A stretch of 64,000 nucleotides of DNA, from the NCBI GenBank assembly GCA_965202855.1, contig CBDBBP010000004.1:807776-871775 (forward strand), in the 5' to 3' direction. Below are positions 8,722 to 43,321 of the stretch, piece by piece. The notes below the pieces were generated by a model. It was not told the DNA's origin, ran no database searches, and worked only from the letters and a program-made list of their open reading frames with translations. This stretch comes from Arenicellales bacterium (lineage in GTDB: Bacteria; Pseudomonadota; Gammaproteobacteria; Arenicellales; JAJDZL01). The first letter of the stretch is position 1. Each line of letters starts with the position of its first letter. A program made the translations under genes and the position numbers.

Positions 8722-8880
8722 TTGGCTTTTACTCGGGTTTACAAATAAAATTTTGAGTGCGACTGTGTTGCGAAATCGGAAATCAAGTTATTCTAGCACT
8801 TTGATTTCCGATTCCTTACTTCAAGTTGAAATTATACACAGCGAATTAATCACAAAATTCTAACAAGGAACAGATATTTG

Positions 8881-9597
8881 ATGAAGCTTACTGAATTTTC
8901 CACATTAACCTTTGACTGCTACGGCACGCTCATTGACTGGGAAACCGGCATTTACAACGCATTGCAGCCGCTGTTGCAGATGGTTGAGCCTTCACCCAAT
9001 CGAGATGAAAGCTTGAAAATTTTCTCCGAACTGGAATCAGGCATTCAAACAGAATTTCCAGATCTAGTTTACTCACAAGTTCTTCATAAAGTTCACGTCG
9101 CGATCTCCAGACATTTCGATATTGCGGCAGTTGACGAATTGCACACCTATTTTGGCGAATCAGTCTGCCACTGGCCTGCCTTCTCAGATTCAGCCGAATC
9201 CCTTCAATATTTGAAACGGCATTATCGACTTGTCATTCTTTCGAACGTTGATCAAAACAGCTTCAGCCAAAGCAATCAGCATCTCAAAGTGGAGTTTGAC
9301 GACATCTACACAGCTCAAGATATTGGTACATATAAGCCGTCCATCAATAATTTCAAGTACATGCTATCAAGACTTGAGGAATCAGGAATACCAAAGTCTG
9401 AGATATTACACACCGCGCAGAGCTTGTTTCACGACATGGCGCCAGCAACAGATCTCGGGCTGGCAACATGCTGGATCGACAGACGAGCGGGAAAAACGGG
9501 ATCTGGAGCCACCCCAGAGGTGAATCAGCCAGTAAATATTGACTTTCGCTTTGAGTCTCTTGCCGCGATGGTGTCAGCACACAGATCAAGCAGCTGA
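8881..9597 (+). CDS. HAD-superfamily hydrolase, haloacid dehalogenase type II-like
   Basis: N-terminal nucleophile motif FDCYGTLIDW, LSNV (motif II) and YKPS...(K)...D motifs. I prefer the ATG at 8881, which has AAGGAA 10 nt upstream. The ORF track starts 3 nt earlier at a TTG. Confidence 0.8.
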   Translation: MKLTEFSTLTFDCYGTLIDWETGIYNALQPLLQMVEPSPNRDESLKIFSELESGIQTEFPDLVYSQVLHKVHVAISRHFDIAAVDELHTYFGESVCHWPAFSDSAESLQYLKRHYRLVILSNVDQNSFSQSNQHLKVEFDDIYTAQDIGTYKPSINNFKYMLSRLEESGIPKSEILHTAQSLFHDMAPATDLGLATCWIDRRAGKTGSGATPEVNQPVNIDFRFESLAAMVSAHRSSS

Positions 9598-9636: not shown

Positions 9637-11697
9637 TCAGACCGCGGGCATTTCACGCAGAAAGGGCACTTCTCGCTCATCCGCTCGCTCACCGAGCTGC
9701 CGCGCCCAGTGATGACCAGAATACACCGCAGCTGCAATCGTTCCAGGAACGAAACAATCACCAATGCAGTCAGCCGAACGAACACTCGAGTCGGAGAATC
9801 TTGAGCTGTCTGCCATTAGTTGCTGATAGAGTTTGTCGTTGGCCAACTGGGCAGTTACCAACACTGCCGAATCACATTCCAGCGCCAGAGAATCTCGGGT
9901 ATAGACACACTGAATCTCAACTCCGCCTTCATGGACAGCTTTCAATGATCGACAGGTATGAATTGAAACTCCCAAATTCAATAGCCGTTCCTGTATCGCA
10001 TGCTGTTCAAGAGTGAAGTGAGTAGAATGTGAAACATCAGCGGCAGGCGTTACGAGGGAAACACTTGCGCCTTGCTGTCGCAGTTTTTCCGCAATCACTC
10101 CTCCCATATAAAAATGATTGTCGTCATAGACGACAATTTTTCCATTCAATTCGGCTCCGTCCAGGATGTCATCCGCTGAAAACACAGAACTCCGATCCGT
10201 TCCGGGTATGGGAAACAAGTGTTCTTGCCCAACTCCATCTTTGCGCCATTTCGCCCCCGTCGCCAGCACTACGCGCTCAGCTCCGAATTCGAAGATGTCA
10301 TCAGCGTTCAAGGCGCTTGCCGGATATAGATCAACATTGACCAATTGCTGCAGCTGCTGCAGTCGATAATCTCGAACTCTAGACCAGGCGCTCAATCCCG
10401 GCAATTGACTTTCTCGACTGACTCGGCCACCGAAACTGTTTTCAGAATCGACCAAAGTCACTTTATGCCCTCGCTTACCTGAACTGACTGCGCATTCTAA
10501 GCCGGCAGGACCTGCGCCAACGATCAAAATTGAGTCTTGATTCCTGGCCGGAGGGATGATTTCCGGGTGCCATCCACGTCGCCACTCTTCACCCATCGTT
10601 GGATTTTGCGTGCAACGAATGGGAGTGATCGTGTAGTCTCCCGAAACACAGATATTGCAGCCGATACACTCGCGAATATCCTCTAATCTCCCCTCTTCAA
10701 TTTTCTTCGGCAAAAATGGATCGGCGATTGAAGGTCGAGCTGCACCGATCATATCGAGTATGCCCCGCCGAACTTGTGAAACCATGGTATCGGGGGAAGT
10801 AAATCGTCCGACTCCCACGACAGGTTTTGTGGTTACCTGCTTTACTCTCTGTACAAAAGGTTCCTGAAATCCTTCCGGTTGAAAGCGGGAAGTCGCAGAA
10901 TCATTACTCCAGTCACTAACATTGACATCCCATATGTCGGGCAATTCAGCGAGCATGCTGACAACTTCAATACCTTCTTCATCGCACTGCAGTCCGTCAG
11001 AACCCATTAGTTCATCCAACATAAAACGAACAGCAATCGCACAAGAAGCGCCCACGGCTTCTTTGGCATCCAATATCAGCTCTTTCATAAATCTCACACG
11101 ATTTTCGAGGGAGCCTCCATACTCATCCGTTCTCTGGTTGGTCCGGCGTGATAGAAACTGAGTTGGCAGTGTGAGCATGTGGGCAGCATAGACGTAAATG
11201 ATGTCATAGCCAATCGCTTGCGCCCGCTTCGCTGCCTTGCAGTAAATTTTGCGCATCTCCCGAATGTCGCGTTTGGTCATGCCGCGAGCATTGATTGTTC
11301 CAAATCCTTCTATAGCAATCGGTGAAGGAGCAAGCGCTGCTGTTCTTGCATAGTGGTTCGAAGCCTGGCCCCCAGAATGAGCAAGTTCGCAGGCAGCAAG
11401 AGAACCGTGCTCATGTACCGCGTCAACCATTAATCGATGTTGGGGAATATCGGCATCATCCCATAGCCGCTGTTCAGAATATGGGGCGATGTCAGAGGAA
11501 TAATGGATATCACACTCTTCAGTAGAGACGACCGCCCAACCTCCCTCTGCTTTCATTCCGCGCATTGCGGCAGCTGTTTTTGGTCTCAGGTGCCCCATCC
11601 CTGCACAGTGAGGAACCTGGTAAAACCGATTGCGCGCGACAACCGGCCCAATCTGAACCGGCTCAAAAAGAATATCGTAACGCGAGTCTCGAGTCAT
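9637..11697 (-). CDS. Trimethylamine/dimethylamine/histamine dehydrogenase-family Fe-S flavoprotein (amine dehydrogenase, paralog 1)
   Basis: 686 aa. DILFEPVQIGPVVARNRFYQVPHC, ARPSIADPFLPKKIEEGRLEDIRECIGCNICVS...CTQNPTMGEEWRRGWHPE and a C-terminal GAGPAG ADP-binding fold are collinear with Methylophilus TMADH as I recall it. Confidence 0.85.
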   Translation of the reverse strand: MTRDSRYDILFEPVQIGPVVARNRFYQVPHCAGMGHLRPKTAAAMRGMKAEGGWAVVSTEECDIHYSSDIAPYSEQRLWDDADIPQHRLMVDAVHEHGSLAACELAHSGGQASNHYARTAALAPSPIAIEGFGTINARGMTKRDIREMRKIYCKAAKRAQAIGYDIIYVYAAHMLTLPTQFLSRRTNQRTDEYGGSLENRVRFMKELILDAKEAVGASCAIAVRFMLDELMGSDGLQCDEEGIEVVSMLAELPDIWDVNVSDWSNDSATSRFQPEGFQEPFVQRVKQVTTKPVVGVGRFTSPDTMVSQVRRGILDMIGAARPSIADPFLPKKIEEGRLEDIRECIGCNICVSGDYTITPIRCTQNPTMGEEWRRGWHPEIIPPARNQDSILIVGAGPAGLECAVSSGKRGHKVTLVDSENSFGGRVSRESQLPGLSAWSRVRDYRLQQLQQLVNVDLYPASALNADDIFEFGAERVVLATGAKWRKDGVGQEHLFPIPGTDRSSVFSADDILDGAELNGKIVVYDDNHFYMGGVIAEKLRQQGASVSLVTPAADVSHSTHFTLEQHAIQERLLNLGVSIHTCRSLKAVHEGGVEIQCVYTRDSLALECDSAVLVTAQLANDKLYQQLMADSSRFSDSSVRSADCIGDCFVPGTIAAAVYSGHHWARQLGERADEREVPFLREMPAV

Positions 11698-11794: not shown

Positions 11795-13189
11795 TCAACC
11801 GTTCCAAAGACCTTCTCGAACCAAATCACTCATCGTCATCTCTATCCCTTGTCTCAAAATATCCACAGTTTCATCCACTTGCTCGCGACTTAGAATCAGA
11901 GGAGGCGAAAGCACGTTCAGATGCGCGATGGGGCGTACGATCAGGCCGAGCGTTTGACAGCGGGCAGCAATTCGATCACCAATTCGAACCGATTCGTCAA
12001 ATATTTCTTTGGTTTCAGGGTTCTTGACGTTTTCCACACACATCATGAAACACTTGCCGCGGACGTCTCCCACGATCGGCAATTCTCGGAGCGTATCCAG
12101 CTGTTCCTCGAAATAAGGCCCTACCTCGCGAACATGTTCACAAATCTGATCACGCTCAATGATCTCGATATTTTTTAGAGCAGCTCGGCAACAAACCGGA
12201 TGTCCGGAATAAGTAAACCCATGTGTGAACAATCCATGCTCGCTAGGAGCGCTGATCACTTCATAAATTTCATCCGATAAAAGAGTCGCGGACAGTGGCA
12301 AATAACCTGATGAAAGTCCTTTTGCAGCAGTAATGATGTCAGGTTTAATTCCGAAGACGGGCTCTGACGACAGCATGTGTCCGATTCGACCGAATCCGGT
12401 TACCACTTCGTCGGAAATATACAAAACTCCATACTCTTTACAAACTTCCAACGTTCGTCGATGATAGCCATCGGGAGGGACAATCACACCGCCCGCGCCC
12501 ATAATTGGCTCAGCGATGAAAGCCGCCACATTATCTTCGCCGAGACTGACGATTTCCTGTTCTAATTCATCAATTAGAAAATCACAGAATTCTTCGTTCG
12601 ACATGTCATCAGGTTTGCGATATGGATTTGGACAAGAAACATAGCTTACCAGTCCAGGCGCCAAATCAAATCCAATGTGATCTGCTTCAACTCCAGTAAG
12701 TGTCATCGTTAGATAGGTGCTGCCGTGGTACGCATCACGCCGAGAGATAATTTTCTTCTTGGATGATTTGCCAAGACGGTTAAAGTAGTAGTGAATAATA
12801 CGTACTGCAGTGTCATTTGCCATGGAACCGCCCGAACCGTAGAACACATGGCTCATATTATCGGGAGCGATTTCGGCCAATTTGGCGGCAAGTTCTGCCG
12901 ACGGAGGAGTAGTCAGATGGTTAAAGGATGAGTAATACGGAATCGCACGCACCTGATCTGCAATGGCCTGCGCCATTTCTTCGCTTCCATATCCTATGTT
13001 CACGCACCATAATCCGCCAATTCCATCAATGTAGCGTCCACCATCGCTGTCATAGACATAGGGGCCATTGGCTTCTGCAACAACTAGTGACCCTTCATCG
13101 TGAAAAACTGAAAAATCAGTCCATGGATGGATGTAATGATCCCTGTCTTTGGTCCATAAATCCTGGGTGTCATATTTTTTTTTCAGCAT
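11795..13189 (-). CDS. Class III (omega) PLP-dependent aminotransferase, amine:pyruvate type
   Basis: 464 aa. Motifs: DGIGGLWCVNIGYG, SGGSMANDTA, ISDEVVTGFGRIG, and PLP-Lys context ITAAKGLSSGY. Confidence 0.9.
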   Translation of the reverse strand: MLKKKYDTQDLWTKDRDHYIHPWTDFSVFHDEGSLVVAEANGPYVYDSDGGRYIDGIGGLWCVNIGYGSEEMAQAIADQVRAIPYYSSFNHLTTPPSAELAAKLAEIAPDNMSHVFYGSGGSMANDTAVRIIHYYFNRLGKSSKKKIISRRDAYHGSTYLTMTLTGVEADHIGFDLAPGLVSYVSCPNPYRKPDDMSNEEFCDFLIDELEQEIVSLGEDNVAAFIAEPIMGAGGVIVPPDGYHRRTLEVCKEYGVLYISDEVVTGFGRIGHMLSSEPVFGIKPDIITAAKGLSSGYLPLSATLLSDEIYEVISAPSEHGLFTHGFTYSGHPVCCRAALKNIEIIERDQICEHVREVGPYFEEQLDTLRELPIVGDVRGKCFMMCVENVKNPETKEIFDESVRIGDRIAARCQTLGLIVRPIAHLNVLSPPLILSREQVDETVDILRQGIEMTMSDLVREGLWNG

Positions 13190-13244: not shown

Positions 13245-13664
13245 TCAACAGCAATCGGCGGACTTAACAGCAATGACATCAATTTCCATCACCCACTCTG
13301 GTTTTGCCAACCCTTGTACGATTAGGCCCGTCGATACCGGGAATACACCCTTCAGCCAACACCCAATCACTTGGTAAACCGCCTCGCGATAGGCGCGGTC
13401 TGTAATGTAGACGGTAATCTTGCAAATGTCGCTCAGGCTCGAACCTGCCTCGTCCAGCAATTGCTTTACGTTGCGCATGGCTTGGTCCGCTTGCGCGGCG
13501 GGGTCGCCGGCGCCGACTACATTACCGTCAAAATCACTGCCAACCTGACCCCTTAAAAAAACCAAATTGCCAGCGATCACGACCTGGCACAAGTCATTGT
13601 CCAAAACTTGGTCGGAATAGGTATCTTTGGTGTTGAATTTTCTTAGTCTAACGTGCTCGCTCAT
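13245..13664 (-). CDS. RidA/YjgF/UK114-family reactive-intermediate deaminase
   Basis: 139 aa. GNLVFLRGQVG...AQADQAMRNVKQLLDEAGSSLSDICKITVYI...VMEIDVIAV is the typical RidA fold pattern. Confidence 0.85.
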   Translation of the reverse strand: MSEHVRLRKFNTKDTYSDQVLDNDLCQVVIAGNLVFLRGQVGSDFDGNVVGAGDPAAQADQAMRNVKQLLDEAGSSLSDICKITVYITDRAYREAVYQVIGCWLKGVFPVSTGLIVQGLAKPEWVMEIDVIAVKSADCC

Positions 13665-13681: not shown

Positions 13682-15133
13682 TTAAGAAATGGTAATTCGG
13701 TCGCTTAAATTTGCCGCTTTTTTGACGAACCTCAGCGCCTCTTTAAAATCGAAGTTCATGTAGACGGCATTCAAATGCGCAAATGGAGGGGACTGTGCGA
13801 ACAGCTGAAACGTCAGTTTATGATTAGCGTAATCGGAATTCAAAAGATCCCTGGCCGTAGCCAGCAATTTACGCCGGTCCTCGAACAGCCACTCTTCATT
13901 GATTGAATAGTATTTCTCCAGCCAAGGCTTAATTTCATCTGTCTGAAAATTTACGTAATCAGGTGTCAAACAGATTTGCCCACCACACAGCTCTCGGGCC
14001 AAATGCATCATATTCGGCAGTTGAGAACATGCTAGAACACGCCCTGTGTAAAGCAGAGATTGGTTGGGCATAAGCAGCCCTTTGGGACTTCGTTGCGCAG
14101 TTGCGATGGAGGCCGTAAGATGAGCGTTGATGCCTTCCCTGTAACACACGAGCTGCGCTAGTTTTTCGCGAACCGCCTGCTGCTTGTCCAGTCCGGTCTG
14201 CCGTACATTGAACATGGCAACGCCAATCAGCATATCAGCAATTTTCTGTATCCTCTGAACAAATGCAAACGCACTATAGCGATGCAATGTCGCTCGAATA
14301 AAAGTGGCTGCTCGGGTGTGCTGGTAGAACAGCACATCCTCCCAGGGAATCAACACATCATCAAATATCATCAATGTATCAATTTCGTCAAATCCGTTCG
14401 CCAGAGGATAATCCTCAGCCGCTGACCGACCTTGAAATCCCGTACGACAAAGGTGAGTTAAACCTTTGGCGTTCATTCGCACAATTACTCCAAGTGCGTA
14501 ATCGGATAGTTTCTGATCACCCCAGTTGGCAATGGTCGGTTTCACGAACGCCTGATCGGCATATGCTGCGGCTGTTTCATACTTCGCGCCACGAATGATC
14601 AATCCAGAATCAGTCTCTTTTACAACGTGCAACAGCATATCTGGATCTTGATCCTGGGGCCGTTTCGAACGGTCTCCTTTCGGGTCGGTATTCGCAGATA
14701 CATGAAAAACATCGTTCTGGATGACAGCATCGATGTGATTTTTGATGTTTTCTGCAAAGCGAGGGTCAATTTCCGATAGTACGTCACTGCCGTCATAGAG
14801 GGACCACATCTCACCAACGGTTTCATCGCCGACACGAGTGACGACACCCCCGATATCATCTAAAATCATGTCGACTGCTTTTCTTCGATGGTGCCAATCC
14901 TCCTGAACGTATGGCATCTTGAGAATGATGGCGCTAGGATCTCCGCTGCTGTCTTTGTAGGTGAGGAATTCACGAGTTTTTTCTTCGTGTTGAAGATCAA
15001 AAATTCTCGCCCGGACATCTACAATGGGCTTGAACGATGGATGGGTTGTCACATCGTCAACCCGCTCACCATCAATCCAGACCTCACGACCGTCTTTCAG
15101 CGACTTCCGATATTGATTGCCTGTACGCAACAT
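13682..15133 (-). CDS. HpaB-family (4-hydroxyphenylacetate 3-monooxygenase oxygenase component-like) flavin-dependent monooxygenase
   Basis: 483 aa. The N-terminus MLRTGNQYRKSLKDGREVWIDGERVDDVTTHP and overall length are typical of the HpaB / 4-hydroxybutyryl-CoA dehydratase superfamily. Confidence 0.8.
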   Translation of the reverse strand: MLRTGNQYRKSLKDGREVWIDGERVDDVTTHPSFKPIVDVRARIFDLQHEEKTREFLTYKDSSGDPSAIILKMPYVQEDWHHRRKAVDMILDDIGGVVTRVGDETVGEMWSLYDGSDVLSEIDPRFAENIKNHIDAVIQNDVFHVSANTDPKGDRSKRPQDQDPDMLLHVVKETDSGLIIRGAKYETAAAYADQAFVKPTIANWGDQKLSDYALGVIVRMNAKGLTHLCRTGFQGRSAAEDYPLANGFDEIDTLMIFDDVLIPWEDVLFYQHTRAATFIRATLHRYSAFAFVQRIQKIADMLIGVAMFNVRQTGLDKQQAVREKLAQLVCYREGINAHLTASIATAQRSPKGLLMPNQSLLYTGRVLACSQLPNMMHLARELCGGQICLTPDYVNFQTDEIKPWLEKYYSINEEWLFEDRRKLLATARDLLNSDYANHKLTFQLFAQSPPFAHLNAVYMNFDFKEALRFVKKAANLSDRITIS

Positions 15134-22482: not shown

Positions 22483-24145
22483 CTAAAGTTTCTGGGTTGA
22501 AAATTGGCTGGAAAACAAGACCTAAGTAATTGATTTAATGTATAAAGTAAGCCTCGAATGGTATATAATGTTGTTTTTGAAAAATCATCAACAAACCAAA
22601 CGAGGCTAAAGCATGAATCATTGTACCAGTAAATCTGAACTGCCACAAAATATTGAACCGACGGTGCAGGATCGACAGTTGCGCATCGACAATCTTTTCG
22701 CCCAGATGTGGGCGGCATTGGGTTTGAACGGACACTTGGGTCGAGCCGGCATGACCAAGCGCAGCGGTCTGAGCGCACGCGAAACGGTGTTTCTGCTGTT
22801 GATGTGGCGTTGGCTGCGAGGCTCTTCGATCGCCATGTTCTGTCGTCACTCCATGCAGGAATTTTTTCAAGCGCGCAAAGATGCGGTGTATGAGTTTTTC
22901 AAGCGTGAAGACCTCAACTGGCGCGGTCTGAACTACCGCGTGGCTCGGGCGGTCTATCAGCGCTGCGGTTTCAAGCGTTCGTCGCAGCGTGCCTTTGTGA
23001 TCGATGACACCATTGTCAGTCGTCGCGGCAAGAAGATGGAAGGGGTATCGGCACACTATGATCACTGCTTGGGGAAAACCGTGATCGGACAGCAGTTGGT
23101 GACCTTGGGGCTGGTGGCAGACGACGGTTTTTTACCGCTGGATTCGGAACTGTTCATCAGTTCCAAGAAAGTGCAGGGATTGAATCACAAGCACCGAGAT
23201 GGGCGCAGCGTGGTGGCTCGGCGGTATCGCTGTGCCAAGCGCCAAAGCAAGCCACAGATGGTCATTGGCATGTTGAAAAAAGCGATGCGCATGGGCTTTG
23301 AGGCACCGTATTTAGTGGCCGATTCGTGGTATGGAACCAAGCGCATCATCCAAGCTGCGCTGGAATTGAAGTTGACGGCGGTGCTGCGCATGAAAAGAGG
23401 GAACTTAAAGTATTGCGTGCTCCAGGCCGATGGCAACGAGGTGTTGCTGGACGTCAAGCAGCTGTATGCCAAGGCTGTACGCAAAAAGTGGCGCAAAGTC
23501 GCAGATCTGCCGTGGCGAGTGGTCTCTTGTACGGTACGGCTGAATCTTGAAGAGGATGAGAGCAAGCCAGAACGGTGGCAGCCGGAGAAGCTGCTGTTCG
23601 TGCGCGGCTTGAATGACAACGATAAAAACCCCAGCAGCAAGAACTGGGCTCTGTTTCTGTCCACTGATCTTCAGTTGAGCGCCGAACAAATGCTGCAGAC
23701 CTATAGTCTGCGTTAAAGCGTGGAGGTTTATTTCAAAGAAGCCAAGCAGCACTTGGGGTTTTTGTCCGAACAGACTCGCAGCTTCGCCTCGTTCATCGCC
23801 TCCATCCATCTGTGTGCGATCCGTCATCTGCTGCTCAGCTATGCGGCTTTAAGCGAGCACGGACACAATGTCCCTGAAGTGCGCGAACAGATCAAAGAAC
23901 AACTCGATTCGATCTGTTTCGCCCGCCGCCTGTGGAACTACTTCCGCAGCTTGGTGTACCATTCTATCCGCGCCAGCAAAACCCTGACCGAGCGCAGCCT
24001 TGACTTCGTGATGCAAGCCATTGACCGAGAAGTCGAACAATTCTTGGAGAGATCACTTCAATTGGATGTCCTCAGCCTACAAGTGGAGGATGATCCAGCT
24101 GTTTTGTCGGGATAATTTAGATGATTTTGAATCCAGAAACTTGAG
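22483..24145 (+). mobile_element. IS4-family insertion sequence (inactive copy)
   Basis: Imperfect terminal inverted repeats: CTAAAGTTTCTGGGTTGAAAAT at 22483-22504, versus the reverse complement of 24124-24145, CTCAAGTTTCTGGATTCAAAAT (19/22). They enclose one transposase reading frame. No target-site duplication is visible. Confidence 0.65.
22613..24115 (+). pseudogene. IS4-family DDE transposase interrupted by one in-frame TAA
   Basis: ORFs 22613-23716 and 23720-24115 are in the same frame, separated by TAA at 23717-23719. The stop falls inside the IS4 Y(2)R(3)E(6)K signature: YSLR*SVEVYFKEAKQ. Confidence 0.8.
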
Positions 24146-24509
24146 GTATGTAGTCTTTGAAATAAGCTCCTTTTACATTTCTGAAATTTTGTAAGCTAGC
24201 GACCTACTTATTTTTGAAATACCCACATCTTTGCTTGATATCCGAGCCTTCGGTAAGGTAACACAGATATCAATAACAAAAAATGTGCTCTCAATTAGTC
24301 GACCTAAAAGAAAGTTTTCGAGTGAAATTGAAGAGATAACAGCGAATACGAGCCATTACAAATTCGGTTTACGAGACACTCAAAACAACCGAAATTGTAT
24401 TTTACACTTGCCGTGCAATATTCCCGCTTCCTTCCGGACGCATCAAACAACGTTGAAATTTCTCGATAATTCTCGTGTTTCAAGTTGCAAGTTTCTATTG
24501 ATCAGAATT

Positions 24510-24881
24510 TCAGACCAATTCTTGTAAATCCACATTCAGTGCTTTAGCAAGTTTAGTCAATGTTTGGGTTGATCCAGTACGTCTACCTGCCTCAATCTTT
24601 GAAAGATAAACAGCATTGATTCCAGCCAGCCCAGCAAGCTGTTTCTGAGTCATACCGCGATAATTGCGGTATACCTTGACACCATTTTCACCAGCAAGCA
24701 AACGGTCAACCACATCAATCGGAAACGACTCCTCATCAGCAAGTTTAGCGCTGTCATATAGTTCTTCATCGCTTAGTTCGATATCCGAATAATATTTGCT
24801 TAATCTTTTGTACAGTCGCCATGGAATAACAGCAAATGCTGGTTGTCCTTTATCGTCGAAAATCACTTGCGGTTCGGTCAT
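24510..24881 (-). CDS. Antitoxin with C-terminal XRE-type HTH (HigA-like position)
   Basis: 123 aa. The C-terminal GMTQKQLAGLAGINAVYLSKIEAGRRTGSTQTLTKLAKALNV is a classical Cro/C1 HTH. It starts 11 nt downstream of the toxin ORF. Confidence 0.8.
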   Translation of the reverse strand: MTEPQVIFDDKGQPAFAVIPWRLYKRLSKYYSDIELSDEELYDSAKLADEESFPIDVVDRLLAGENGVKVYRNYRGMTQKQLAGLAGINAVYLSKIEAGRRTGSTQTLTKLAKALNVDLQELV

Positions 24882-24892
24882 TATTTTCTCTC

Positions 24893-25153
24893 CTATGGAT
24901 TGTAAATATCTCTCCTAAGGACGATGCGCAATACTTCAATTTCGCAGTTCTGGTCGTCTCTATCAAAAATAACACGCCAATCTCCTGATCGCAATCTAAA
25001 ACCTTGTCGGCCTTGTAACTTCACTACATCGATATCGTTCCGTTGTGGGTCTTCGACTAGCTTTGCCAATCTGCTACGTACGCGATTTGCATCTCGTTTA
25101 CGCATTCTTCTGAAAGATTTCAGTGCTTGCTTCCTTACTTTCAGATTGTACAT
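24893..25153 (-). CDS. RelE/ParE-superfamily type II toxin (toxin-first, HigB-like arrangement)
   Basis: 86 aa. LQGRQGFRLRSGDWRVIFDRDDQNCEIEVLRIVLRRDIY matches the RelE/ParE core pattern (.G....R.R.GdyR.i......i.V..i.hR...Y). Confidence 0.8.
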   Translation of the reverse strand: MYNLKVRKQALKSFRRMRKRDANRVRSRLAKLVEDPQRNDIDVVKLQGRQGFRLRSGDWRVIFDRDDQNCEIEVLRIVLRRDIYNP

Positions 25154-25319
25154 AGCGTTAAGCCTTGCTATAAGAAATTCTTACCGCTATACAAAGTCAA
25201 ATGCTAAGGACATGAAAAACGTTAAATCCCTAATCCGAAATTAGCAATGACAATATAGAAAAAAGCCTTGTAATATTAAAGTGTTAAAGCATTCTTCAGG
25301 ATCCTCTAATGTGTGATCA

Positions 25320-25496
25320 ATGGTAACAACCCTAAAAAATACAAGGCGTATGAACATTCTACCCTGTGAAACAGCTGACAGCAATCGCAACTTGACCTCC
25401 CACGCTGGTTTGGTAGTGCTTGCGGATTTATTCAAACGCATGGGATTGAACGAATTGGTGGATCATTTCATGCCCGCGCCAGGCAGCAATCGCGGC
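25320..25496 (+). pseudogene. N-terminal stub of an IS1380-like transposase
   Basis: SNRNLTSHAGLVVLADLFKRMGLNELVDHF..PGSNRG resembles the NLTS.AGL N-terminus of IS1380-family transposases such as ISEcp1. It breaks off after about 59 codons. Confidence 0.4.
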
Positions 25497-25504
25497 TGCC
25501 TGAG

Positions 25505-26326
25505 GTGGAGCTTTTGGTGCGAGCCAAGTATGATCGAAGTCAGGGCAAAGGCAAGCCGAAGATGTTCGCCGCGATCCGGGCACAGCCCGCGCAAGCGCGG
25601 TTGGAAGTGCCGGTCATGGCACAATCCGCGCGGCGCAGCACTCGCAGTCAGAAGGTGCGCCTGAAGCGGCCCAAGCGGATGGCGACGGTCGAGTTGCGCT
25701 GGCGTGCGGTCGAGATTCAGCCGACCAGCGGCTTTGCCAATGAGAAACCGATCCAGATGAATCTGGTACATGTGTATGAACCTGAAGCGCCGGCGGCTTC
25801 AAGCGCACTGGAGTGGCTGCTGCTGACCAGCTTGGCGGTGACCAATGTCGACGAGGCCAAGGCAGTGGTGGAGCGTTATCTTTTGCGTTGGCGCATTGAG
25901 GATTGGCATCGGATTCTGAAGTCCGGCTGCAAAGCGGAGTTTTTGCAATATCGAAAGGGCGAACGCATCGAACGGGCGGTCACCATCAATGCCGTCATCG
26001 CTTGGCGGCTGGCGGCCATGACTTTGCTAGGGCGGGAAACTCCAGAATTGCCGATGCAGGTGCTGTTCAGCAACACTGAAATCGGAGTGTTGGAGGATTT
26101 CGCATGCGAAAATCGCTTGAAAGTGCCGGACAATGCCGCTACCGGTGTGTTGACGATGGCCATGAACGCCGGTTATATGAACCGCAAGAATGATCCACCG
26201 CCCGGTTACAAGAAAATCTGGGAAGGATATATCCGATTGGAAAATATGTCGCAAGCTTATGACTTAGCCTATCACATGATGATACGAAAGCAAGGCTGGT
26301 TACACGATAAGTTAAGTCCTGACTAA
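25505..26326 (+). pseudogene. C-terminal half of a Tn5/IS50-like (IS4-family) transposase
   Basis: LEWLLLTSLAVTNVDEAKAVVERYLLRWRIEDWHRILKSGCKAE...VIAWRL parallels Tn5 Tnp LKWLLLTSEPVESLAQALRVIDIYTHRWRIEEFHKAWKTGAGAE. The N-terminal part carrying the two catalytic Asp residues is missing. Confidence 0.8.
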
Positions 26327-27031: not shown

Positions 27032-29104
27032 TCAATCAGCCAATGATGCCACTTCACGTCGGAAAGGCAGTGAATCGATTTGCCTGGAGCCGTCAAGCTC
27101 TCTAGCGTAACGATGGCCTGCATAGACTGCCCACGCAATGGGACCTGGGGCTTCAGCATCTCCAATCACGCTGATTGACTGAATACCTGCATCCGCCCAA
27201 TCATCTTGTTTAGTTTTAAGTTCTTGCCAAAGTTCGTCTTTAGGCGTACGCGAGGTTACAAGAACCACTGAGTCAGCTGCAAGCTCTGCTTCCCGACCAG
27301 TGTAACTACAAGCAGTAATAACCCGATCATTTCGTATACGGGTGACAGTGCGATTGAGTCGAAGCTCAACACCAAGTTCAACCAGTCGATTGTGTATTGC
27401 TCCCTGTTCAAGAGTATTTCTTGACCAGTCGGAAACATAGGCAGAAGGCGTCACTAAAGTTACTTGATTGCCATTTTGCACCAGCAGTTCCGCCAGCACT
27501 CCGCCCATGTAGTAGTGGTCGTCATCAAAAAGCACAACTTTGCCGCTACCAGGCAGTTGACCCGCCATCAAGTCATCGGGCGTGAAGATTGGCATGGCCG
27601 GGTCAAGCGGCATGGGAGTTACATGAAAGCGAGCAACCCCATCTCTTCGCCAAACTGAACCGGTGGCAACTGCAACATGTTCAAATCCAAATTCGAGGAC
27701 CATTTCCGCTGAAAGCTCACTGTCGAAGAAAATCTCCACATTGGCCATTTGGCTGAGTTGGTATTGTCGATAGTCTTCAACCCGTCCCCACGTAGCCAAG
27801 CCTGGCAGCTTGCACTCACGGGCTACACGTCCACCCAGATGCGTATTGGCTTCGGCTACTATCACTGCATAGCCTCTTAAGCCTAGCACTCTAGCGGCTT
27901 CCATCCCTGCTGGCCCTGAACCGATGATCAGAACGCTATCGCATTCTCCTTTGGGTGGCATATGCTCTGGGTGCCAACCCTTGCGCCATTCCTCCATGAA
28001 TGTGGGATTTTGGGTGCAGCGTGAGATCGACATAGTCATATCGCCAGAGATGCAAATGTTACAGCCGATACATTCACGAATATCCTCAATTCGACCTTCC
28101 TCGATCTTTTTCGGAAGGAAGGGGTCAGCAATAGACGGTCTGGCACAACCGATCAAATCCAGGATTCCGTTCCTTACCTGCTTGGCCATAGTATCCGGCG
28201 AGGTGAACCGCCCTACACCAACAATGGGTTTGGATGTGAGCGATTTTATGCCTTCGACGAGATCTTGTTGGGCAGCTTCCGGTAAAAAGCGCGACGGTCC
28301 GGAACAGTCTTCCCAAGAGCCGTGAGCCAAATCCCAGAGGTCGGGAAGATCACCATGCATCTCAATCATATCTCGGACTTCGGCATTGGAGAATCCCAGG
28401 TTACCTACAGTCTCGTGAAGTGAAATTCGCAGCGAGATTGCACATGAATCGCCTACTTCGTCCTTGCCCACCTCTACCAATTCACGCATCAGACGCGAGC
28501 GGTTTTCCAGACTGCCACCATATTCGTCGCTGCGGTGATTTGTAGCGCGGGAGAGAAAATGCTGAATGATGCCGAATCCATGGGCGCCGTAAAGGCAAAT
28601 CAAGTCGAAGCCTGCCTGTTTAGCCCGACGATAGGCATTGCGGTGCCAGCGCAAAAGATCTTGGATATCTTGCTTGTCCATGGCTCGAGCTTGAACCGGG
28701 TCATTGGTGAAAGTACGAATCGGGAGCGGTGTCGGCGCGCGAGGCACCTCCCGGGTGTAGAAGTTCGGGCCATTTATACCCGAGTAGGCTAGCTGAATGC
28801 CGGCTAGAGCACCATGTTCATGAATTGCGTCGGCCATTCGAGCTAACATTGGGATGTCACCATCATCCCAAAGGCGTAGCTCAATGAAAGGAGTGATTTC
28901 CGAGGTGTGATGCATCTCACACTGCTCGGTGAAAACCACCCCCCAGCCACCCTCAGCTTTGATTCGGCGCATCTCTGCTACTGCCGAGGGATCCCGATAA
29001 CCGCCGCCATTGCAATGTGGCACCTGAAAAAAACGATTACGGGAAGTTACCGGTCCGATCTGGACCGGTTCAAACAGCACATCATACCGTGGGTCACGAG
29101 TCAT
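27032..29104 (-). CDS. Trimethylamine/dimethylamine/histamine dehydrogenase-family Fe-S flavoprotein (amine dehydrogenase, paralog 2)
   Basis: 690 aa. Motifs: DVLFEPVQIGPVTSRNRFFQVPHC, ARPSIADPFLPKKIEEGRIEDIRECIGCNICIS...CTQNPTFMEEWRKGWHPE and GSGPAG. By eye it is roughly 55-60 percent identical to paralog 1. Confidence 0.85.
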   Translation of the reverse strand: MTRDPRYDVLFEPVQIGPVTSRNRFFQVPHCNGGGYRDPSAVAEMRRIKAEGGWGVVFTEQCEMHHTSEITPFIELRLWDDGDIPMLARMADAIHEHGALAGIQLAYSGINGPNFYTREVPRAPTPLPIRTFTNDPVQARAMDKQDIQDLLRWHRNAYRRAKQAGFDLICLYGAHGFGIIQHFLSRATNHRSDEYGGSLENRSRLMRELVEVGKDEVGDSCAISLRISLHETVGNLGFSNAEVRDMIEMHGDLPDLWDLAHGSWEDCSGPSRFLPEAAQQDLVEGIKSLTSKPIVGVGRFTSPDTMAKQVRNGILDLIGCARPSIADPFLPKKIEEGRIEDIRECIGCNICISGDMTMSISRCTQNPTFMEEWRKGWHPEHMPPKGECDSVLIIGSGPAGMEAARVLGLRGYAVIVAEANTHLGGRVARECKLPGLATWGRVEDYRQYQLSQMANVEIFFDSELSAEMVLEFGFEHVAVATGSVWRRDGVARFHVTPMPLDPAMPIFTPDDLMAGQLPGSGKVVLFDDDHYYMGGVLAELLVQNGNQVTLVTPSAYVSDWSRNTLEQGAIHNRLVELGVELRLNRTVTRIRNDRVITACSYTGREAELAADSVVLVTSRTPKDELWQELKTKQDDWADAGIQSISVIGDAEAPGPIAWAVYAGHRYARELDGSRQIDSLPFRREVASLAD

Positions 29105-39906: not shown

Positions 39907-40610
39907 ATTCCGAGATAGGCTTTTTTGACGTGCTCATTGTCCGCTAGCGCATCAGCCGCGTCTTGCAGCGTAATTCTGCCATTCTCCAGAACGTAGCCAT
40001 AGTCCACCAGCTTGAGCGCTAAATCAGCATTTTGTTCAACCAAGATTACAGTTACGCCTTGGCTGTTGATTTCCTGCATGATTTCACCAATTTCTTGAAC
40101 AATTAGGGGGGCGAGTCCTAGAGAGGGTTCGTCCAACAATAACACTTTCGGCCGCGACATCAGTGCACGACCAATTGATAACATCTGTTGCTCCCCACCG
40201 CTTAAAGTTCGCGCCTCTTGATTCTGACGTTCCTTCAAGACTGGAAAGTGCCTGTATATCTCCTGCAAATCTTGATTGATTCGATTTTGGTCTTTGTATA
40301 TGAAAGCACCCAGCATTAAGTTTTCTATCACTGACAGATCTTTGAATACACGGCGCCCCTCAGGCACATGTGCGATGCCAAGTTTCAAAATCTGGTCGGC
40401 AGGAATATTATTGAGAGGTTGATCATCAACTGAAATTTGCCCAGCACTTGGACGAACAAGTCCTGAAATAGCTCGGAGTGTCGTACTTTTACCGGCTCCG
40501 TTTGATCCAATTAACGTAATAAATCCACCATCCTCGACCGTAAAGCTGATACCTTTTAACGCTGCGACATTGTGATAGTTCACATGCAAATCGGTTACGT
40601 TCAGTTTCAT
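39903..40610 (-). CDS. ABC transporter ATP-binding protein, LivF-like (HAAT family)
   Basis: 235 aa. Walker A GSNGAGKST, signature LSGGEQQML, Walker B LLLDEPSLGL. Confidence 0.9.
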   Translation of the reverse strand: MKLNVTDLHVNYHNVAALKGISFTVEDGGFITLIGSNGAGKSTTLRAISGLVRPSAGQISVDDQPLNNIPADQILKLGIAHVPEGRRVFKDLSVIENLMLGAFIYKDQNRINQDLQEIYRHFPVLKERQNQEARTLSGGEQQMLSIGRALMSRPKVLLLDEPSLGLAPLIVQEIGEIMQEINSQGVTVILVEQNADLALKLVDYGYVLENGRITLQDAADALADNEHVKKAYLGI

Positions 40611-40648
40611 ATCAAGTCTCTTCGTTCGGTCAGCACTGTTTTGTAAAA

Positions 40649-43231: not shown

Positions 43232-43321
43232 TGAATAATCCTCAGATCAATTCAATTTACAGCAATACAAAAAGGGGAGAGAAGCTTAGTCTCTCCCCCT
43301 TTCTTAGTTATGCAGGCAGAT

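What the first reader, a model, noticed from the sequence alone, without database searches (positions are those of the whole stretch)
9637..11697. Both TMADH-family paralogs keep the cofactor sites but have lost the trimethylamine 'aromatic bowl'
I aligned both paralogs by eye to Methylophilus methylotrophus TMADH. The sequence and numbering are recalled from memory and should be verified.

Conserved in both paralogs:
- Cys30 (QVPHC), the 6-S-cysteinyl-FMN site.
- Tyr169/His172 (YVYAAH in paralog 1, CLYGAH in paralog 2).
- Trp264 (DWSND / SWEDC).
- The 4Fe-4S ligands CIGCNIC...C(TQN).

Changed:
- Tyr60 becomes Glu in paralog 1 (STEEC) and Gln in paralog 2 (FTEQC).
- Trp355 becomes Asp in both (C[VI]SGD).
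- Trp105 becomes Ala in both (ELAH / QLAY).

Two of the three cation-pi residues that cradle trimethylammonium are therefore replaced by polar or acidic residues. As I recall, Gln plus Asp at these positions is the pattern in Nocardioides histamine dehydrogenase, whereas dimethylamine dehydrogenase keeps both Trp residues. Although they sit in a genome region rich in methylamine genes, these enzymes probably act on primary or charged amines rather than TMA or DMA. The Glu/Asp combination in paralog 1 is one I cannot assign to any characterised member.
Basis: partly seen in the sequence, partly recalled or inferred. Interest (0 to 1): 0.6.

Follow-up and report, generated by a model that had tools for sequence, protein, structure and literature searches.

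The report
Two histamine-dehydrogenase-type enzymes, not trimethylamine dehydrogenases
Two genes that look like trimethylamine dehydrogenase keep the enzyme's cofactor sites but lack its trimethylamine pocket: one is a clear histamine dehydrogenase, and the other belongs to a common, untested sister group found here with histamine-breakdown-type genes.

Summary

- **Kept in both proteins:** the FMN-linking cysteine, the four [4Fe-4S] cysteines, the Tyr/His catalytic pair and TMADH Trp264.
- **Changed in both:** Tyr60 becomes Glu (paralog 1) or Gln (paralog 2). Trp355 becomes Asp and Trp105 becomes Ala. Tyr442, the ETF-contact residue, becomes Arg.

**Paralog 2** (27032-29104) is a histamine dehydrogenase (HADH) orthologue. 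It is 72% identical to the Rhizobium enzyme and has the same pocket residues. It lies on an IS-scarred, probably acquired island with a HinA-like permease and a HinF-like monooxygenase.

**Paralog 1** (9637-11697) falls outside the HADH clade.
- Its Glu/Asp signature is the majority pattern among its nearest relatives (109 of 120).
- I found no characterised member with this pair. The solved enzyme HisD has Glu but Val.
- In Arenicellales it sits in a conserved operon: HpaB-like monooxygenase, RidA, class-III aminotransferase, paralog 1. Elsewhere the same monooxygenase and RidA lie in modules that mirror hinFLHG.
- One orthologue in the same operon has Gln instead of Glu.

Paralog 1 therefore most likely oxidises histamine or a close analogue; a polyamine or agmatine is the main alternative. 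TMA is handled here by Tmm and Tdm. This is a moderately interesting refinement, not a new kind of system.

The parts
9637..11697 (-). Paralog 1: FMN/[4Fe-4S] amine dehydrogenase of the TMADH/HADH family (686 aa). Pocket residues: E61, I70, Y73, E75, Q111, M174, L175, W263, N265, D266, D354, Y355.
   Evidence: It is 51-52% identical to the HADHs, 50% to HisD and 42% to TMADH. It lies outside the HADH clade, in an Arenicellales subclade with bootstrap 100.
11515..11517 (-). Codon GAG = Glu61 of paralog 1, at the TMADH Tyr60 / HADH Gln65 position.
   Evidence: At least 90% conserved among 60 relatives. It is Gln in orthologue P0035.
10636..10638 (-). Codon GAC = Asp354 of paralog 1, at the HADH Asp358 / TMADH Trp355 site.
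   Evidence: Invariant in the 60-sequence alignment.
11605..11607 (-). Codon TGT = Cys31 of paralog 1, the predicted 6-S-cysteinyl-FMN attachment site.
10612..10668 (-). The four [4Fe-4S] ligand cysteines of paralog 1: C344, C347, C350, C362.
11795..13189 (-). Class-III omega-amine:pyruvate-type aminotransferase (464 aa), 97 bp upstream of paralog 1. Same class as HinC.
   Evidence: NCBIfam NF005447, 733 bits against a cutoff of 618. Best solved relatives include putrescine and polyamine:pyruvate transaminases. The same model also hits the aminotransferase next to a paralog-1-type gene in SAR324 locus L012; BLAST shows similar aminotransferases at 48-49% identity next to those genes in L012 and L018.
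13245..13664 (-). RidA/YjgF-family protein (139 aa), HinL-like.
   Evidence: It is 64% identical to the RidA of the Caballeronia HpaB-RidA-DUF1028-M20 module, and 51% to the RidA of the Mesorhizobium hin-type cluster.
13682..15133 (-). HpaB-family flavin-dependent monooxygenase, oxygenase component (483 aa). It is the first gene of the paralog 1 operon and a probable functional stand-in for HinF.
   Evidence: It is 72.5% identical by tblastn to the Caballeronia homologue and 74% to the Rhodoligotrophos one. Both homologues sit in flavin reductase-HpaB-RidA-DUF1028-M20 modules. It has no Cys pair of the AbfD type at the corresponding position (read from the sequence).
8878..9597 (+). HAD type II hydrolase, convergent with paralog 1 and conserved beside it in every Arenicellales locus examined. 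Role unknown.
27032..29104 (-). Paralog 2: histamine dehydrogenase orthologue (690 aa). Pocket residues: Q61, I70, F73, E75, N111, Y172, H175, G176, F177, W264, D266, C267, D355, M356.
   Evidence: It gives 1162 bits and 72% identity to 6de6. It lies in the HADH clade with bootstrap 98.
29333..30727 (-). APC-family amine/amino-acid permease (HinA-like), upstream of and co-directional with paralog 2.
   Evidence: It is 89% identical to the permease next to the paralog-2-like gene in L086. HinA is described as an APC permease in PMC8231116.
30728..35596 (.). ORF-poor, IS-scarred spacer separating the permease and paralog 2 from the HinF-like gene. It contains a TnpB fragment at 34468-35025.
   Evidence: tblastn found no remnants of RidA, DUF1028, ALDH or M20 genes here.
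35597..36880 (-). Flavin-dependent monooxygenase (427 aa), HinF-like.
   Evidence: It matches the MSMEG_0569 family in NCBIfam. It is 75% identical to the monooxygenase of the Mesorhizobium hin-type cluster, and 79% to the one beside the paralog-2-like gene in L086.
22613..26326 (+). IS701/IS4-family transposase ORFs (22613-23716 and 25505-26326) flanking the paralog 2 island.
37534..51392 (.). Methylated-amine route that makes a TMADH unnecessary here: Tdm 37534-39906 (+), Liv/Urt-type ABC transporter 39903-44602 (-), Tmm 44874-46211 (+), N-methylglutamate-synthase-like subunits 46740-49917 (-), GmaS-like type III glutamine synthetase 49905-51392 (-).
   Evidence: Tdm scores 1132 bits (cutoff 1100). 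Tmm scores 793 bits (cutoff 675).

Best explanation
Both genes encode three-domain FMN/[4Fe-4S]/ADP amine dehydrogenases of the histamine-dehydrogenase branch of the TMADH family. Neither is a trimethylamine or dimethylamine dehydrogenase.

**Predicted chemistry (inferred from the family).** The substrate amine is oxidised at covalently bound 6-S-cysteinyl-FMN. The resulting imine hydrolyses to an aldehyde plus ammonia. Electrons leave through the [4Fe-4S] cluster to an unidentified acceptor.

**Paralog 2** is a histamine dehydrogenase. It converts histamine to imidazole acetaldehyde. It is carried on an IS-scrambled, probably acquired, fragment of a hin-type histamine cluster, together with a HinA-like permease and a HinF-like imidazoleacetate-type monooxygenase.

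**Paralog 1** is the native enzyme conserved across Arenicellales. It is the last gene of the operon HpaB-like monooxygenase, HinL-like RidA, class-III aminotransferase, paralog 1. It most likely oxidises histamine or a close imidazole-alkylamine analogue, feeding a hin-like lower pathway in which a two-component HpaB-type monooxygenase replaces HinF.

**Paralog 1 pocket.** It differs from the characterised HADHs at Glu61, Tyr73, Gln111, Met174, Leu175 and Tyr355. Its exact substrate or kinetics probably differ as well.

**What is shown and what is inferred.**
- Shown: residue identities, clade placement, gene neighbourhoods.
- Inferred: substrates, the role of the HpaB-like enzyme, the electron acceptor.
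For: **Family and cofactor sites**
- The best solved relatives of both proteins are the HADHs 6de6 and 3k30, then HisD, then TMADH.
- Cofactor residues are all kept; the TMA bowl residues Tyr60 and Trp355 are replaced.

**Paralog 2**
- It is 72% identical to the Rhizobium HADH and matches it at 14 of the 15 pocket positions examined.
- The HADH clade has bootstrap 98.
- A 77%-identical homologue in Mesorhizobium australicum lies in the cluster FMO-RidA-DUF1028-ALDH-LysR-M20-HADH-MFS. That matches the gene content of hinF-L-H-D-K-G as described in PMC8231116 and PMC6467879.
- The window's monooxygenase at 35597-36880 is 75-79% identical to the one in those clusters. The permease is 89% identical to the one beside an 85%-identical paralog 2 relative.

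**Paralog 1**
- The operon has 17, 55 and 97 bp gaps between genes.
- It is conserved in every Arenicellales locus examined, down to 61% identity.
- Its HpaB-like protein is 72-74% identical to proteins sitting in flavin reductase-HpaB-RidA-DUF1028-M20(+LysR) modules in Caballeronia and Rhodoligotrophos.
- The RidA, DUF1028 and M20 proteins of those modules are 47-62% identical to those of the Mesorhizobium hin-type cluster.
- Paralog 1 keeps HADH binding-site residues Ile74, Glu79, Trp267 and Asp358.
- Orthologue P0035, in the same operon, carries the HADH-type Gln at position 61.

**TMA is handled otherwise.** The window encodes Tmm, Tdm and GmaS.
Against: **Paralog 1 pocket.**
- It differs from both HADHs at four of the eight proposed histamine-binding residues: Q65E, F77Y, N115Q, Y181L.
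- In the Rhizobium enzyme, saturation mutagenesis at Phe176 gave no active variants. Variants at Gln60 were much less active on histamine (PMC10180351). Paralog 1 has Leu and Glu at those sites.
- It lies outside the HADH clade.

**Incomplete pathway in the window.**
- The window has no aldehyde dehydrogenase, flavin reductase, DUF1028 or M20 gene.
- The operon already has an aminotransferase that could perform the same step on histamine.

**Untested assumptions.**
- That the HpaB-type module acts on imidazole acetate is inferred from gene content only.
- Paralog-1-type genes in other phyla sit next to Pot-type ABC transporters, agmatinase and PuuC-like aldehyde dehydrogenase. That points to polyamines or agmatine.
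- No structure-based view of the pocket was possible. In the AlphaFold model, residues 265-269 and 345-368 have pLDDT below 50.
Confidence: 0.6

Rival explanations
1. Paralog 1 is a dehydrogenase for aliphatic, doubly cationic amines such as putrescine, cadaverine, 1,3-diaminopropane, agmatine or spermidine. The extra carboxylate (Glu61, alongside Glu75, Asp266 and Asp354) binds the second positive charge. The adjacent aminotransferase handles the second amino group after aldehyde oxidation.
For: - The pocket is more acidic than in HADH, and the aromatic residue Tyr181/Phe176 is replaced by Leu.
- Of 56 non-Arenicellales loci with the same C-E-E-W-D-D signature, 24 have at least one of the following within 8 kb: two or more Pot-type ABC components (8 loci), a class-III aminotransferase (11), a PuuC-like aldehyde dehydrogenase (10) or an agmatinase-family gene (8).
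- The aminotransferase's best solved relatives include putrescine and polyamine:pyruvate transaminases.
- The pairing of a similar class-III aminotransferase with a paralog-1-type dehydrogenase recurs in SAR324.
- Both characterised HADHs have side activity on agmatine and diamines (PMC10180351).
Against: - Those neighbourhoods belong to proteins only 55-62% identical to paralog 1, outside its bootstrap-100 subclade.
- The broad Glu/Asp group is not supported as one clade (bootstrap 5).
- Paralog 1's own conserved operon contains hin-like genes, not polyamine genes.
- Pot-family transporters also flank a hin-like module in Caballeronia, so they are not specific to polyamines.
- A Gln61 orthologue exists in the same operon.
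Confidence: 0.25
2. Paralog 1 acts on a secondary N-methylamine, as HisD/Pno does. An example would be an N-methylated histamine or polyamine. It would release methylamine or formaldehyde, and the primary amine product would pass to the neighbouring aminotransferase.
For: - Paralog 1 shares with HisD the Glu at the Tyr60 site, Leu175 and the VNVSDW motif, at 50% identity.
- This would explain why a dehydrogenase and an aminotransferase coexist in one operon.
- The window also encodes methylamine assimilation genes, GmaS and N-methylglutamate synthase.
Against: - HisD lacks the FMN cysteine and the Asp354 equivalent.
- No direct evidence exists for such substrates.
- The methylamine genes lie about 35 kb away, in a separate cluster.
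Confidence: 0.1
3. One or both proteins are true trimethylamine or dimethylamine dehydrogenases, as automatic annotation of their relatives says ('dimethylamine/trimethylamine dehydrogenase').
For: - Their relatives carry that JGI name.
- Overall architecture and cofactor sites are shared with TMADH.
- The surrounding region is rich in methylated-amine genes.
Against: - They are only 41-42% identical to TMADH, against 51-72% to the HADHs.
- Tyr60, Trp355, Trp105 and Tyr442 are all replaced.
- The organism has the Tmm/Tdm route for TMA.
- Paralog 2 nests inside the HADH clade.
Confidence: 0.03

Closest known systems
Histamine dehydrogenase, Rhizobium sp. 4-9 (PDB 6DE6) and Nocardioides simplex (PDB 3K30)
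   Same: - Same three-domain architecture, FMN cysteine and [4Fe-4S] ligands.
- Gln/Asp in place of TMADH Tyr60/Trp355, Ala at Trp105, Arg at Tyr442.
- Paralog 2 is 72% identical to the Rhizobium enzyme and 57% to the Nocardioides enzyme. It matches the Rhizobium enzyme at 14 of the 15 pocket positions examined.
- Paralog 1 shares the equivalents of Ile74, Glu79, Trp267, Asp270 and Asp358.
   Different: - Paralog 1 is only 51-52% identical and lies outside the clade.
- It has Glu61 for Gln, Tyr73 for Phe, Gln111 for Asn, Met174-Leu175 for Gly-Tyr/Phe, and Tyr355 for Leu/Met.
HisD/Pno, 6-hydroxypseudooxynicotine dehydrogenase (PDB 6L6J, Pseudomonas geniculata N1)
   Same: It is the only solved member with Glu at the Tyr60 position. 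It shares Leu175 and the VNVSDW motif with paralog 1, at 50% identity.
   Different: - HisD has Ala instead of the FMN cysteine; its FMN is non-covalent (PMC7688666).
- It has Val instead of Asp354 and Asp instead of Glu75.
- It acts on a secondary N-methylamine in nicotine degradation.
Trimethylamine dehydrogenase, Methylophilus methylotrophus W3A1 (PDB 1DJN / 2TMD)
   Same: Fold, domain order, Cys30, Tyr169/His172, Arg222, Trp264 and the four Cys ligands.
   Different: - Identity is only 41-42%.
- The aromatic bowl residues Tyr60 and Trp355, plus Trp105 and the ETF-contact Tyr442, are all replaced.
Pseudomonas hin histamine pathway (HinA permease, HinC aminotransferase, HinD ALDH, HinF monooxygenase, HinL enamine deaminase, HinH/HinG amidases, HinK LysR)
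   Same: - Around paralog 2: an APC permease and a HinF-like monooxygenase.
- Around paralog 1: a class-III aminotransferase and a HinL-like RidA.
- Relatives of the HpaB-like gene sit with RidA, DUF1028, M20 and LysR genes in the hinFLHG order (PMC8231116, PMC6467879).
   Different: - An FMN/Fe-S dehydrogenase stands beside or in place of HinC.
- In the paralog 1 operon a two-component HpaB-type monooxygenase replaces HinF.
- No HinD, HinH or HinG equivalents lie in this window.

Membership tests
TMADH/HADH superfamily (FMN + [4Fe-4S] + ADP amine dehydrogenases) | Three-domain architecture: an N-terminal OYE-like FMN barrel followed by two nucleotide-binding-type domains, about 690 aa in total. 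| tested here: met
   Full-length alignments to 6de6, 3k30, 6l6j and 1djn. Pfam PF00724 plus PF07992/PF13450 on the proteins. Foldseek top hits are the same four enzymes.
TMADH/HADH superfamily (FMN + [4Fe-4S] + ADP amine dehydrogenases) | A cysteine for the 6-S-cysteinyl-FMN link (TMADH Cys30) and four [4Fe-4S] ligand cysteines. | tested here: met
   C31 in both. Ligands are C344, C347, C350, C362 in paralog 1 and C345, C348, C351, C363 in paralog 2.
TMADH/HADH superfamily (FMN + [4Fe-4S] + ADP amine dehydrogenases) | Catalytic Tyr169-His172-Asp267 triad and Arg222. | tested here: met
   - Paralog 1 has Y170, H173, D266 and R224.
- Paralog 2 has Y172, H175 and R226, with Cys267 at the aligned Asp position and Asp266 next to it.
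- The Rhizobium HADH has the same arrangement (TWEDC). PMC10180351 takes the neighbouring Asp as the triad member.
Trimethylamine dehydrogenase (EC 1.5.8.2) | Aromatic bowl Tyr60 / Trp264 / Trp355, which binds trimethylammonium by cation-pi contacts. | tested here: not met
   Only Trp264 is kept. Tyr60 becomes Glu or Gln, and the Trp355 site is Asp.
Trimethylamine dehydrogenase (EC 1.5.8.2) | Surface Tyr442 used for electron transfer to ETF. The role of this residue is recalled from the TMADH literature. | tested here: not met
   It is Arg in both paralogs, in both HADHs, in HisD and in all 120 relatives of paralog 1.
Trimethylamine dehydrogenase (EC 1.5.8.2) | Oxidative demethylation of TMA. 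| not testable with these tools
   Needs an enzyme assay.
Dimethylamine dehydrogenase (EC 1.5.8.1) | Gln60 / Thr74 / Phe105 with Trp264 and Trp355 retained. This pattern is recalled from Basran et al. 1997; no DMADH sequence was reachable with these tools. | tested here: not met
   Both paralogs have Asp at the Trp355 site, Glu at position 74 and Ala at position 105. The DMADH pattern itself was not verified here.
Histamine dehydrogenase (EC 1.4.9.1): paralog 2 | Proposed histamine-binding residues Gln65, Ile74, Phe77, Glu79, Asn115, Tyr181, Trp267 and Asp358 (N. simplex numbering, listed in PMC10180351). | tested here: met
   Paralog 2 has Q61, I70, F73, E75, N111, F177, W264 and D355. This is identical to the Rhizobium HADH and differs from the Nocardioides enzyme only by Tyr181 to Phe.
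Histamine dehydrogenase (EC 1.4.9.1): paralog 2 | Falls within the clade of characterised HADHs. | tested here: met
   In the neighbour-joining tree, paralog 2 groups with the Rhizobium HADH at bootstrap 89. The clade that also includes the Nocardioides HADH has bootstrap 98.
Histamine dehydrogenase (EC 1.4.9.1): paralog 1 | The same eight proposed histamine-binding residues. | tested here: not met
   Four of eight are kept (I70, E75, W263, D354). Four are changed (E61, Y73, Q111, L175). In Rhizobium HADH mutagenesis, the Phe176 site tolerated no substitution and Gln60 variants were weak.
Histamine dehydrogenase (EC 1.4.9.1): paralog 1 | Falls within the clade of characterised HADHs. | tested here: not met
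   Paralog 1 lies in a separate subclade with bootstrap 100, outside the bootstrap-98 HADH clade.
Histamine dehydrogenase (EC 1.4.9.1): both | Oxidation of histamine to imidazole acetaldehyde. | not testable with these tools
   Needs an enzyme assay.
HisD/Pno (6-hydroxypseudooxynicotine dehydrogenase) | Non-covalent FMN (Ala at the Cys30 site), with Glu60, Asp74 and Val354. | tested here: not met
   Paralog 1 shares only Glu at position 60. Both paralogs keep the cysteine and the Asp.
hin-type histamine catabolic cluster | Co-location of a permease, an amine-to-aldehyde enzyme, an ALDH, a monooxygenase, a RidA-type deaminase, two amidases and a LysR regulator. | tested here: inconclusive
   - The window holds parts of two such sets: permease, monooxygenase and paralog 2; and HpaB-like, RidA, aminotransferase and paralog 1.
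- It holds no ALDH, DUF1028, M20, LysR or flavin reductase gene.
- Complete sets exist in relatives' genomes.

The most novel reading that the evidence does not exclude
The Glu61/Asp354 group, the commonest pattern among paralog 1's nearest relatives (Alpha- and Gammaproteobacteria, SAR324), may be a functionally distinct, uncharacterised set of FMN/[4Fe-4S] amine dehydrogenases rather than iso-functional histamine dehydrogenases.

- In Arenicellales it would serve an undescribed variant of imidazole-amine catabolism, built on a two-component HpaB-type monooxygenase. The substrate might be methylated histamines.
- In other marine and soil bacteria it would act as an agmatine or polyamine dehydrogenase linked to Pot-type uptake systems.
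Probability: 0.3. Interest if true: 0.6.

Novelty: new variant of a known kind. Interest (0 to 1): 0.42.

Why it matters
**Annotation.** Relatives of both genes are named 'dimethylamine/trimethylamine dehydrogenase' in JGI annotations, or carry generic oxidoreductase names. That would wrongly add a TMADH route to the methylated-amine budget of an abundant marine lineage that in fact uses Tmm and Tdm.

**A large untested group.** Recognising paralog 2 as a histamine dehydrogenase and paralog 1 as a separate clade corrects that. It also flags a widespread group with a defined pocket signature and no tested member.

**Possible new pathways.** If the clade proves to act on histamine analogues, agmatine or polyamines, it would add a cofactor-distinct entry step to biogenic-amine and polyamine catabolism. 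It would also reveal a two-component replacement for the imidazoleacetate monooxygenase HinF.

**Engineering.** The natural Glu/Gln toggle at position 61 and the Leu at the Phe176 site are ready-made tests of specificity determinants in enzymes already used as histamine biosensors.

Tried and rejected
1. **Structure-based pocket inspection.** AlphaFold2 on a 60-sequence alignment gave mean pLDDT 84. The Fe-S loop (345-368, which holds Asp354) and residues 265-269 are below 50, and no coordinates are exposed. Foldseek global superpositions had rmsd of about 22 Å, probably from domain placement. The model only confirms the fold family.
2. **50%-identity representative library.** It collapsed the whole HADH and paralog 1 group into a few representatives. 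It served only as a source of outgroups.
3. **Literature.** Reed et al. 2010 (the HADH structure paper) could not be opened by DOI or PMC id. Full-text searches for the PDB code 6L6J, for putrescine/agmatine/polyamine dehydrogenases of this type and for Tyr60/Trp355 gave nothing useful.
4. **AbfD-type dehydratase reading of the HpaB-like protein.** Rejected. The Fe-S ligand cysteines are absent, and the best solved hits are HpaB-type oxygenases.
5. **Polyamine neighbourhood as the main clue for paralog 1.** Downgraded after finding that those neighbourhoods belong to proteins outside its subclade. An early count was also inflated by unrelated short ABC ATPases; the strict recount is.
6. **Exact look-up of paralog 1's contig.** This failed. 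Cluster look-ups returned no names. The organism is inferred only as Arenicellales-like, from relatives 69-72% identical.
7. **Remnants of missing hin genes near paralog 2.** A tblastn search for RidA, DUF1028, ALDH, M20 and LysR found none.

Full report
**1. What is at the coordinates**

The span 9637-11697 is exactly one minus-strand ORF of 686 aa, 'paralog 1'. The second family member is the 690-aa ORF at 27032-29104, also on the minus strand, 'paralog 2'.

Both give full-length matches to solved structures in the same order:
- histamine dehydrogenase (HADH) from Rhizobium sp. 4-9 (6DE6)
- HADH from Nocardioides simplex (3K30)
- 6L6J
- trimethylamine dehydrogenase (TMADH; 1DJN, 2TMD)

6L6J is HisD/Pno, the 6-hydroxypseudooxynicotine dehydrogenase of nicotine degradation (PMC11759058, PMC7688666).

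Pairwise identities:

| | Rhizobium HADH | Nocardioides HADH | HisD | TMADH |
|---|---|---|---|---|
| Paralog 1 | 51% | 52% | 50% | 42% |
| Paralog 2 | 72% | 57% | 47% | 41% |

The two window proteins share only 51% identity with each other.

**2. Checking the register**

I rebuilt the four reference sequences from the HMMER alignments. They reproduce the published residue numbers.

| TMADH residue | Paralog 1 | Paralog 2 |
|---|---|---|
| Cys30 | C31 | C31 |
| Tyr60 | E61 | Q61 |
| Ser74 | E75 | E75 |
| Trp105 | A106 | A106 |
| Tyr169 / His172 | Y170 / H173 | Y172 / H175 |
| Arg222 | R224 | R226 |
| Trp264 | W263 | W264 |
| Four Fe-S cysteines | kept | kept |
| Trp355 region | SGD, Asp354 | SGD, Asp355 |

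- The alignment at Trp355 is ambiguous by one residue between methods. No Trp is present in either register. The Asp is the same residue as HADH Asp358.
- Tyr442, recalled from the TMADH literature as the ETF-contact residue, is Arg in both proteins and in all 120 nearest relatives of paralog 1.
- The changes are not noise. In 60 relatives of paralog 1, C31, E75, Y170, H173, W263, D354 and the ligand cysteines are invariant. E61, L175 and D266 are at least 90% conserved.

**3. Paralog 2 is a histamine dehydrogenase orthologue on an acquired island**

*Pocket and phylogeny.*
- PMC10180351 lists the proposed histamine-binding residues of the Nocardioides enzyme: Gln65, Ile74, Phe77, Glu79, Asn115, Tyr181, Trp267, Asp358. 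It also lists their Rhizobium equivalents.
- Paralog 2 matches the Rhizobium enzyme at 14 of the 15 pocket positions examined.
- In a neighbour-joining tree it pairs with that enzyme at bootstrap 89, inside an HADH clade with bootstrap 98.

*Evidence for acquisition.*
- Its closest database relatives, at 76-80% identity, are from Labrys, Mesorhizobium and Hyphomicrobium, all Alphaproteobacteria.
- The host is Arenicellales-like, a gammaproteobacterial order.
- Its 90% cluster has a single member. Paralog 1's cluster has five members, from several assemblies.
- The gene is flanked by IS701/IS4 transposase ORFs and a TnpB fragment.

*Genomic context.*
- In Mesorhizobium australicum a 77%-identical homologue lies in the cluster FMO-type monooxygenase, RidA, DUF1028, aldehyde dehydrogenase, LysR, M20 peptidase, HADH, MFS.
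- That gene content matches the Pseudomonas hin histamine pathway, with the dehydrogenase taking HinC's place. The pathway comprises HinF monooxygenase, HinL enamine deaminase, HinH and HinG amidases, HinD ALDH and HinK LysR regulator (PMC8231116, PMC6467879).
- The window's monooxygenase at 35597-36880 is 75% identical to the Mesorhizobium one. It is 79% identical to the one beside an 85%-identical paralog 2 relative in locus L086.
- The APC permease at 29333-30727 is 89% identical to L086's permease.
- A 4.9-kb ORF-poor, IS-scarred stretch now separates the monooxygenase from the permease and paralog 2. No remnants of the other hin genes are detectable.

**4. Paralog 1 belongs to a common but uncharacterised group**

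- The six-site signature covers the Cys30, Tyr60, Ser74, Trp264, Asp267 and Trp355 sites. It reads C-E-E-W-D-D in 109 of the 120 best-scoring cluster representatives.
- It reads the same in 65 of 88 family proteins found in related genome loci. These come from Alpha- and Gammaproteobacteria, SAR324 and others, including cultured Roseovarius, Kiloniella and Pelagibius.
- Glu/Asp is therefore the norm near paralog 1, not a peculiarity.
- No solved structure has this pair. HisD has Glu with Val and lacks the FMN cysteine. My literature searches found no characterised enzyme with it.
- Compared with the HADHs, paralog 1 also changes Phe77 to Tyr, Asn115 to Gln, Gly180-Tyr181 to Met-Leu, and Leu359 to Tyr.
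- In the Rhizobium enzyme the Phe176 site (the equivalent of Tyr181) tolerated no substitution, and Gln60 variants were much less active. A specificity or kinetic difference is therefore likely.
- In the tree, paralog 1 sits in a subclade with bootstrap 100, outside the HADH clade. The wider Glu/Asp group is not resolved as a single clade (bootstrap 5).

**5. Context of paralog 1**

*The operon.*
- The gene order is HpaB-like monooxygenase (13682-15133), RidA (13245-13664), class-III aminotransferase (11795-13189), then paralog 1. All are on the minus strand with gaps of 17, 55 and 97 bp.
- A HAD hydrolase is convergent downstream.
- The block is conserved in every Arenicellales-type locus examined, down to 61% identity, even where one flank differs.

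*The HpaB-like protein.*
- It is unusually conserved, at 72-76% identity across Alpha-, Beta- and Gammaproteobacteria.
- In Caballeronia and Rhodoligotrophos it lies in modules ordered flavin reductase, HpaB-like, RidA, DUF1028, M20, with a LysR regulator nearby.
- The RidA, DUF1028 and M20 proteins of those modules are 47-62% identical to those of the Mesorhizobium hin-type cluster. The window's RidA is 64% identical to the Caballeronia RidA and 51% to the Mesorhizobium RidA.
- The simplest reading is that the HpaB-type two-component monooxygenase replaces HinF in an otherwise hin-like lower pathway. The paralog 1 operon would then combine the first two lower-pathway genes with two amine-to-aldehyde enzymes.

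*The Glu/Gln toggle.* Orthologue P0035, in the same operon in a syntenic locus, carries Gln at position 61, the HADH pattern. Glu and Gln therefore interchange among orthologues.

*Conclusion for paralog 1.* I take histamine or a close imidazole-alkylamine analogue as its most likely substrate, at about 0.45-0.5 probability.

**6. The main alternative**

- Proteins with the same signature but only 55-62% identity, in other phyla, have different neighbours.
- Of 56 such loci, 24 have at least one of these within 8 kb: two or more Pot-type ABC components (8 loci), a class-III aminotransferase (11), a PuuC-like aldehyde dehydrogenase (10) or an agmatinase-family gene (8).
- None has hin-like lower-pathway genes.
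- This points to agmatine or polyamines for those enzymes, and keeps a di-cationic aliphatic substrate open for paralog 1 at about 0.25 probability.
- Several caveats apply:
  - No background rate was measured.
  - Aldehyde dehydrogenases and aminotransferases are expected next to any amine oxidiser.
  - A Pot-family transporter also flanks the hin-like module in Caballeronia.
- A third possibility, at about 0.1, is a secondary N-methylamine substrate, by analogy with HisD.

**7. Why these are not TMA or DMA enzymes**

- Apart from the lost bowl, the window encodes the alternative aerobic route:
  - Tmm (793 bits, cutoff 675)
  - Tdm (1132 bits, cutoff 1100)
  - a GmaS-like type III glutamine synthetase
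  - N-methylglutamate-synthase-like subunits
I could not verify this with the tools.

**8. Limits**

- No coordinates were available, and the AlphaFold model is unreliable exactly at the Fe-S loop and the 265-269 loop. I could not check whether Tyr355 or Tyr73 of paralog 1 supply an aromatic wall.
- Substrates, the electron acceptor and the function of the HpaB-like enzyme are inferences.
- The tree is distance-based and built on 43 sequences.

**9. Verdict**

- Paralog 2 is a new member of a known kind (HADH).
- Paralog 1 is a pocket variant in a large untested clade, embedded in a hin-like operon that uses a different monooxygenase.
- This is useful for annotation and gives clear experiments. 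It is not a new category of system.

Noticed in passing
window 7007-8620 (-): The trigger factor is 537 aa and has a strongly His-rich C-terminal stretch (...HHDHIHGHEHHHHHEHHHHHHHHEGEHSEHKEHE...). The syntenic trigger factors of relatives are 475-490 aa.
   Followed up: no
window 22613-26326 and 30728-35596: IS701/IS4 transposase ORFs and a truncated TnpB (34468-35025) bracket paralog 2. The 4.9-kb stretch between the permease and the HinF-like gene has no ORF over about 185 aa. It looks like decayed or rearranged DNA.
   Followed up: partly
window 37534-52571: A near-complete methylated-amine route is present: Tdm, a Liv/Urt-type ABC transporter, Tmm, N-methylglutamate-synthase-like subunits and a GmaS-like type III glutamine synthetase. 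A TauD-like dioxygenase follows.
   Followed up: partly
L088 7391-11785; L090 7404-12990: Flavin reductase-HpaB-like-RidA-DUF1028-M20(+LysR) modules occur in Caballeronia and Rhodoligotrophos. They mirror hinFLHG with a two-component monooxygenase in place of HinF. The HpaB-like protein is 72-76% identical across three proteobacterial classes. I know of no description of this variant.
   Followed up: partly
L071, L032, L084, L043, L038, L047 (coordinates): Many genomes carry tandem arrays of two to four TMADH-family paralogs with different pocket signatures, for example CE..E..WDD next to CY..S..YED types. Several arrays sit beside Pot-type ABC transporter genes and BetI/TetR regulators.
   Followed up: no
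L091 8001-10070: The paralog 1 orthologue P0035 has Gln rather than Glu at the Tyr60 site, within the same HpaB-RidA-aminotransferase operon. A taurine-type cluster (Xsc-like TPP enzyme, Pta, alanine dehydrogenase, aminotransferase) lies downstream.
   Followed up: partly
window 8878-9597 (+) and 20388-21092 (+): There are two HAD type II (haloacid-dehalogenase-type) paralogs. The first is convergent with paralog 1 and conserved there in all Arenicellales loci. The second precedes an MFS transporter.
   Followed up: no
window 58001-60000: A local GC spike of 58.6%, against about 47% elsewhere, lies over a YeiB-like DUF418 membrane protein gene (58154-59422). Many long overlapping ORFs occur there on both strands.
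   Followed up: no
window 410-1105 (-) and 61371-63116 (-): A 231-aa ORF matches only the C-terminal half of McrB and may be a truncated restriction subunit. SoxB thiosulfohydrolase (800 bits) lies at the other end of the window, which fits a sulfur-oxidising lineage.
   Followed up: no
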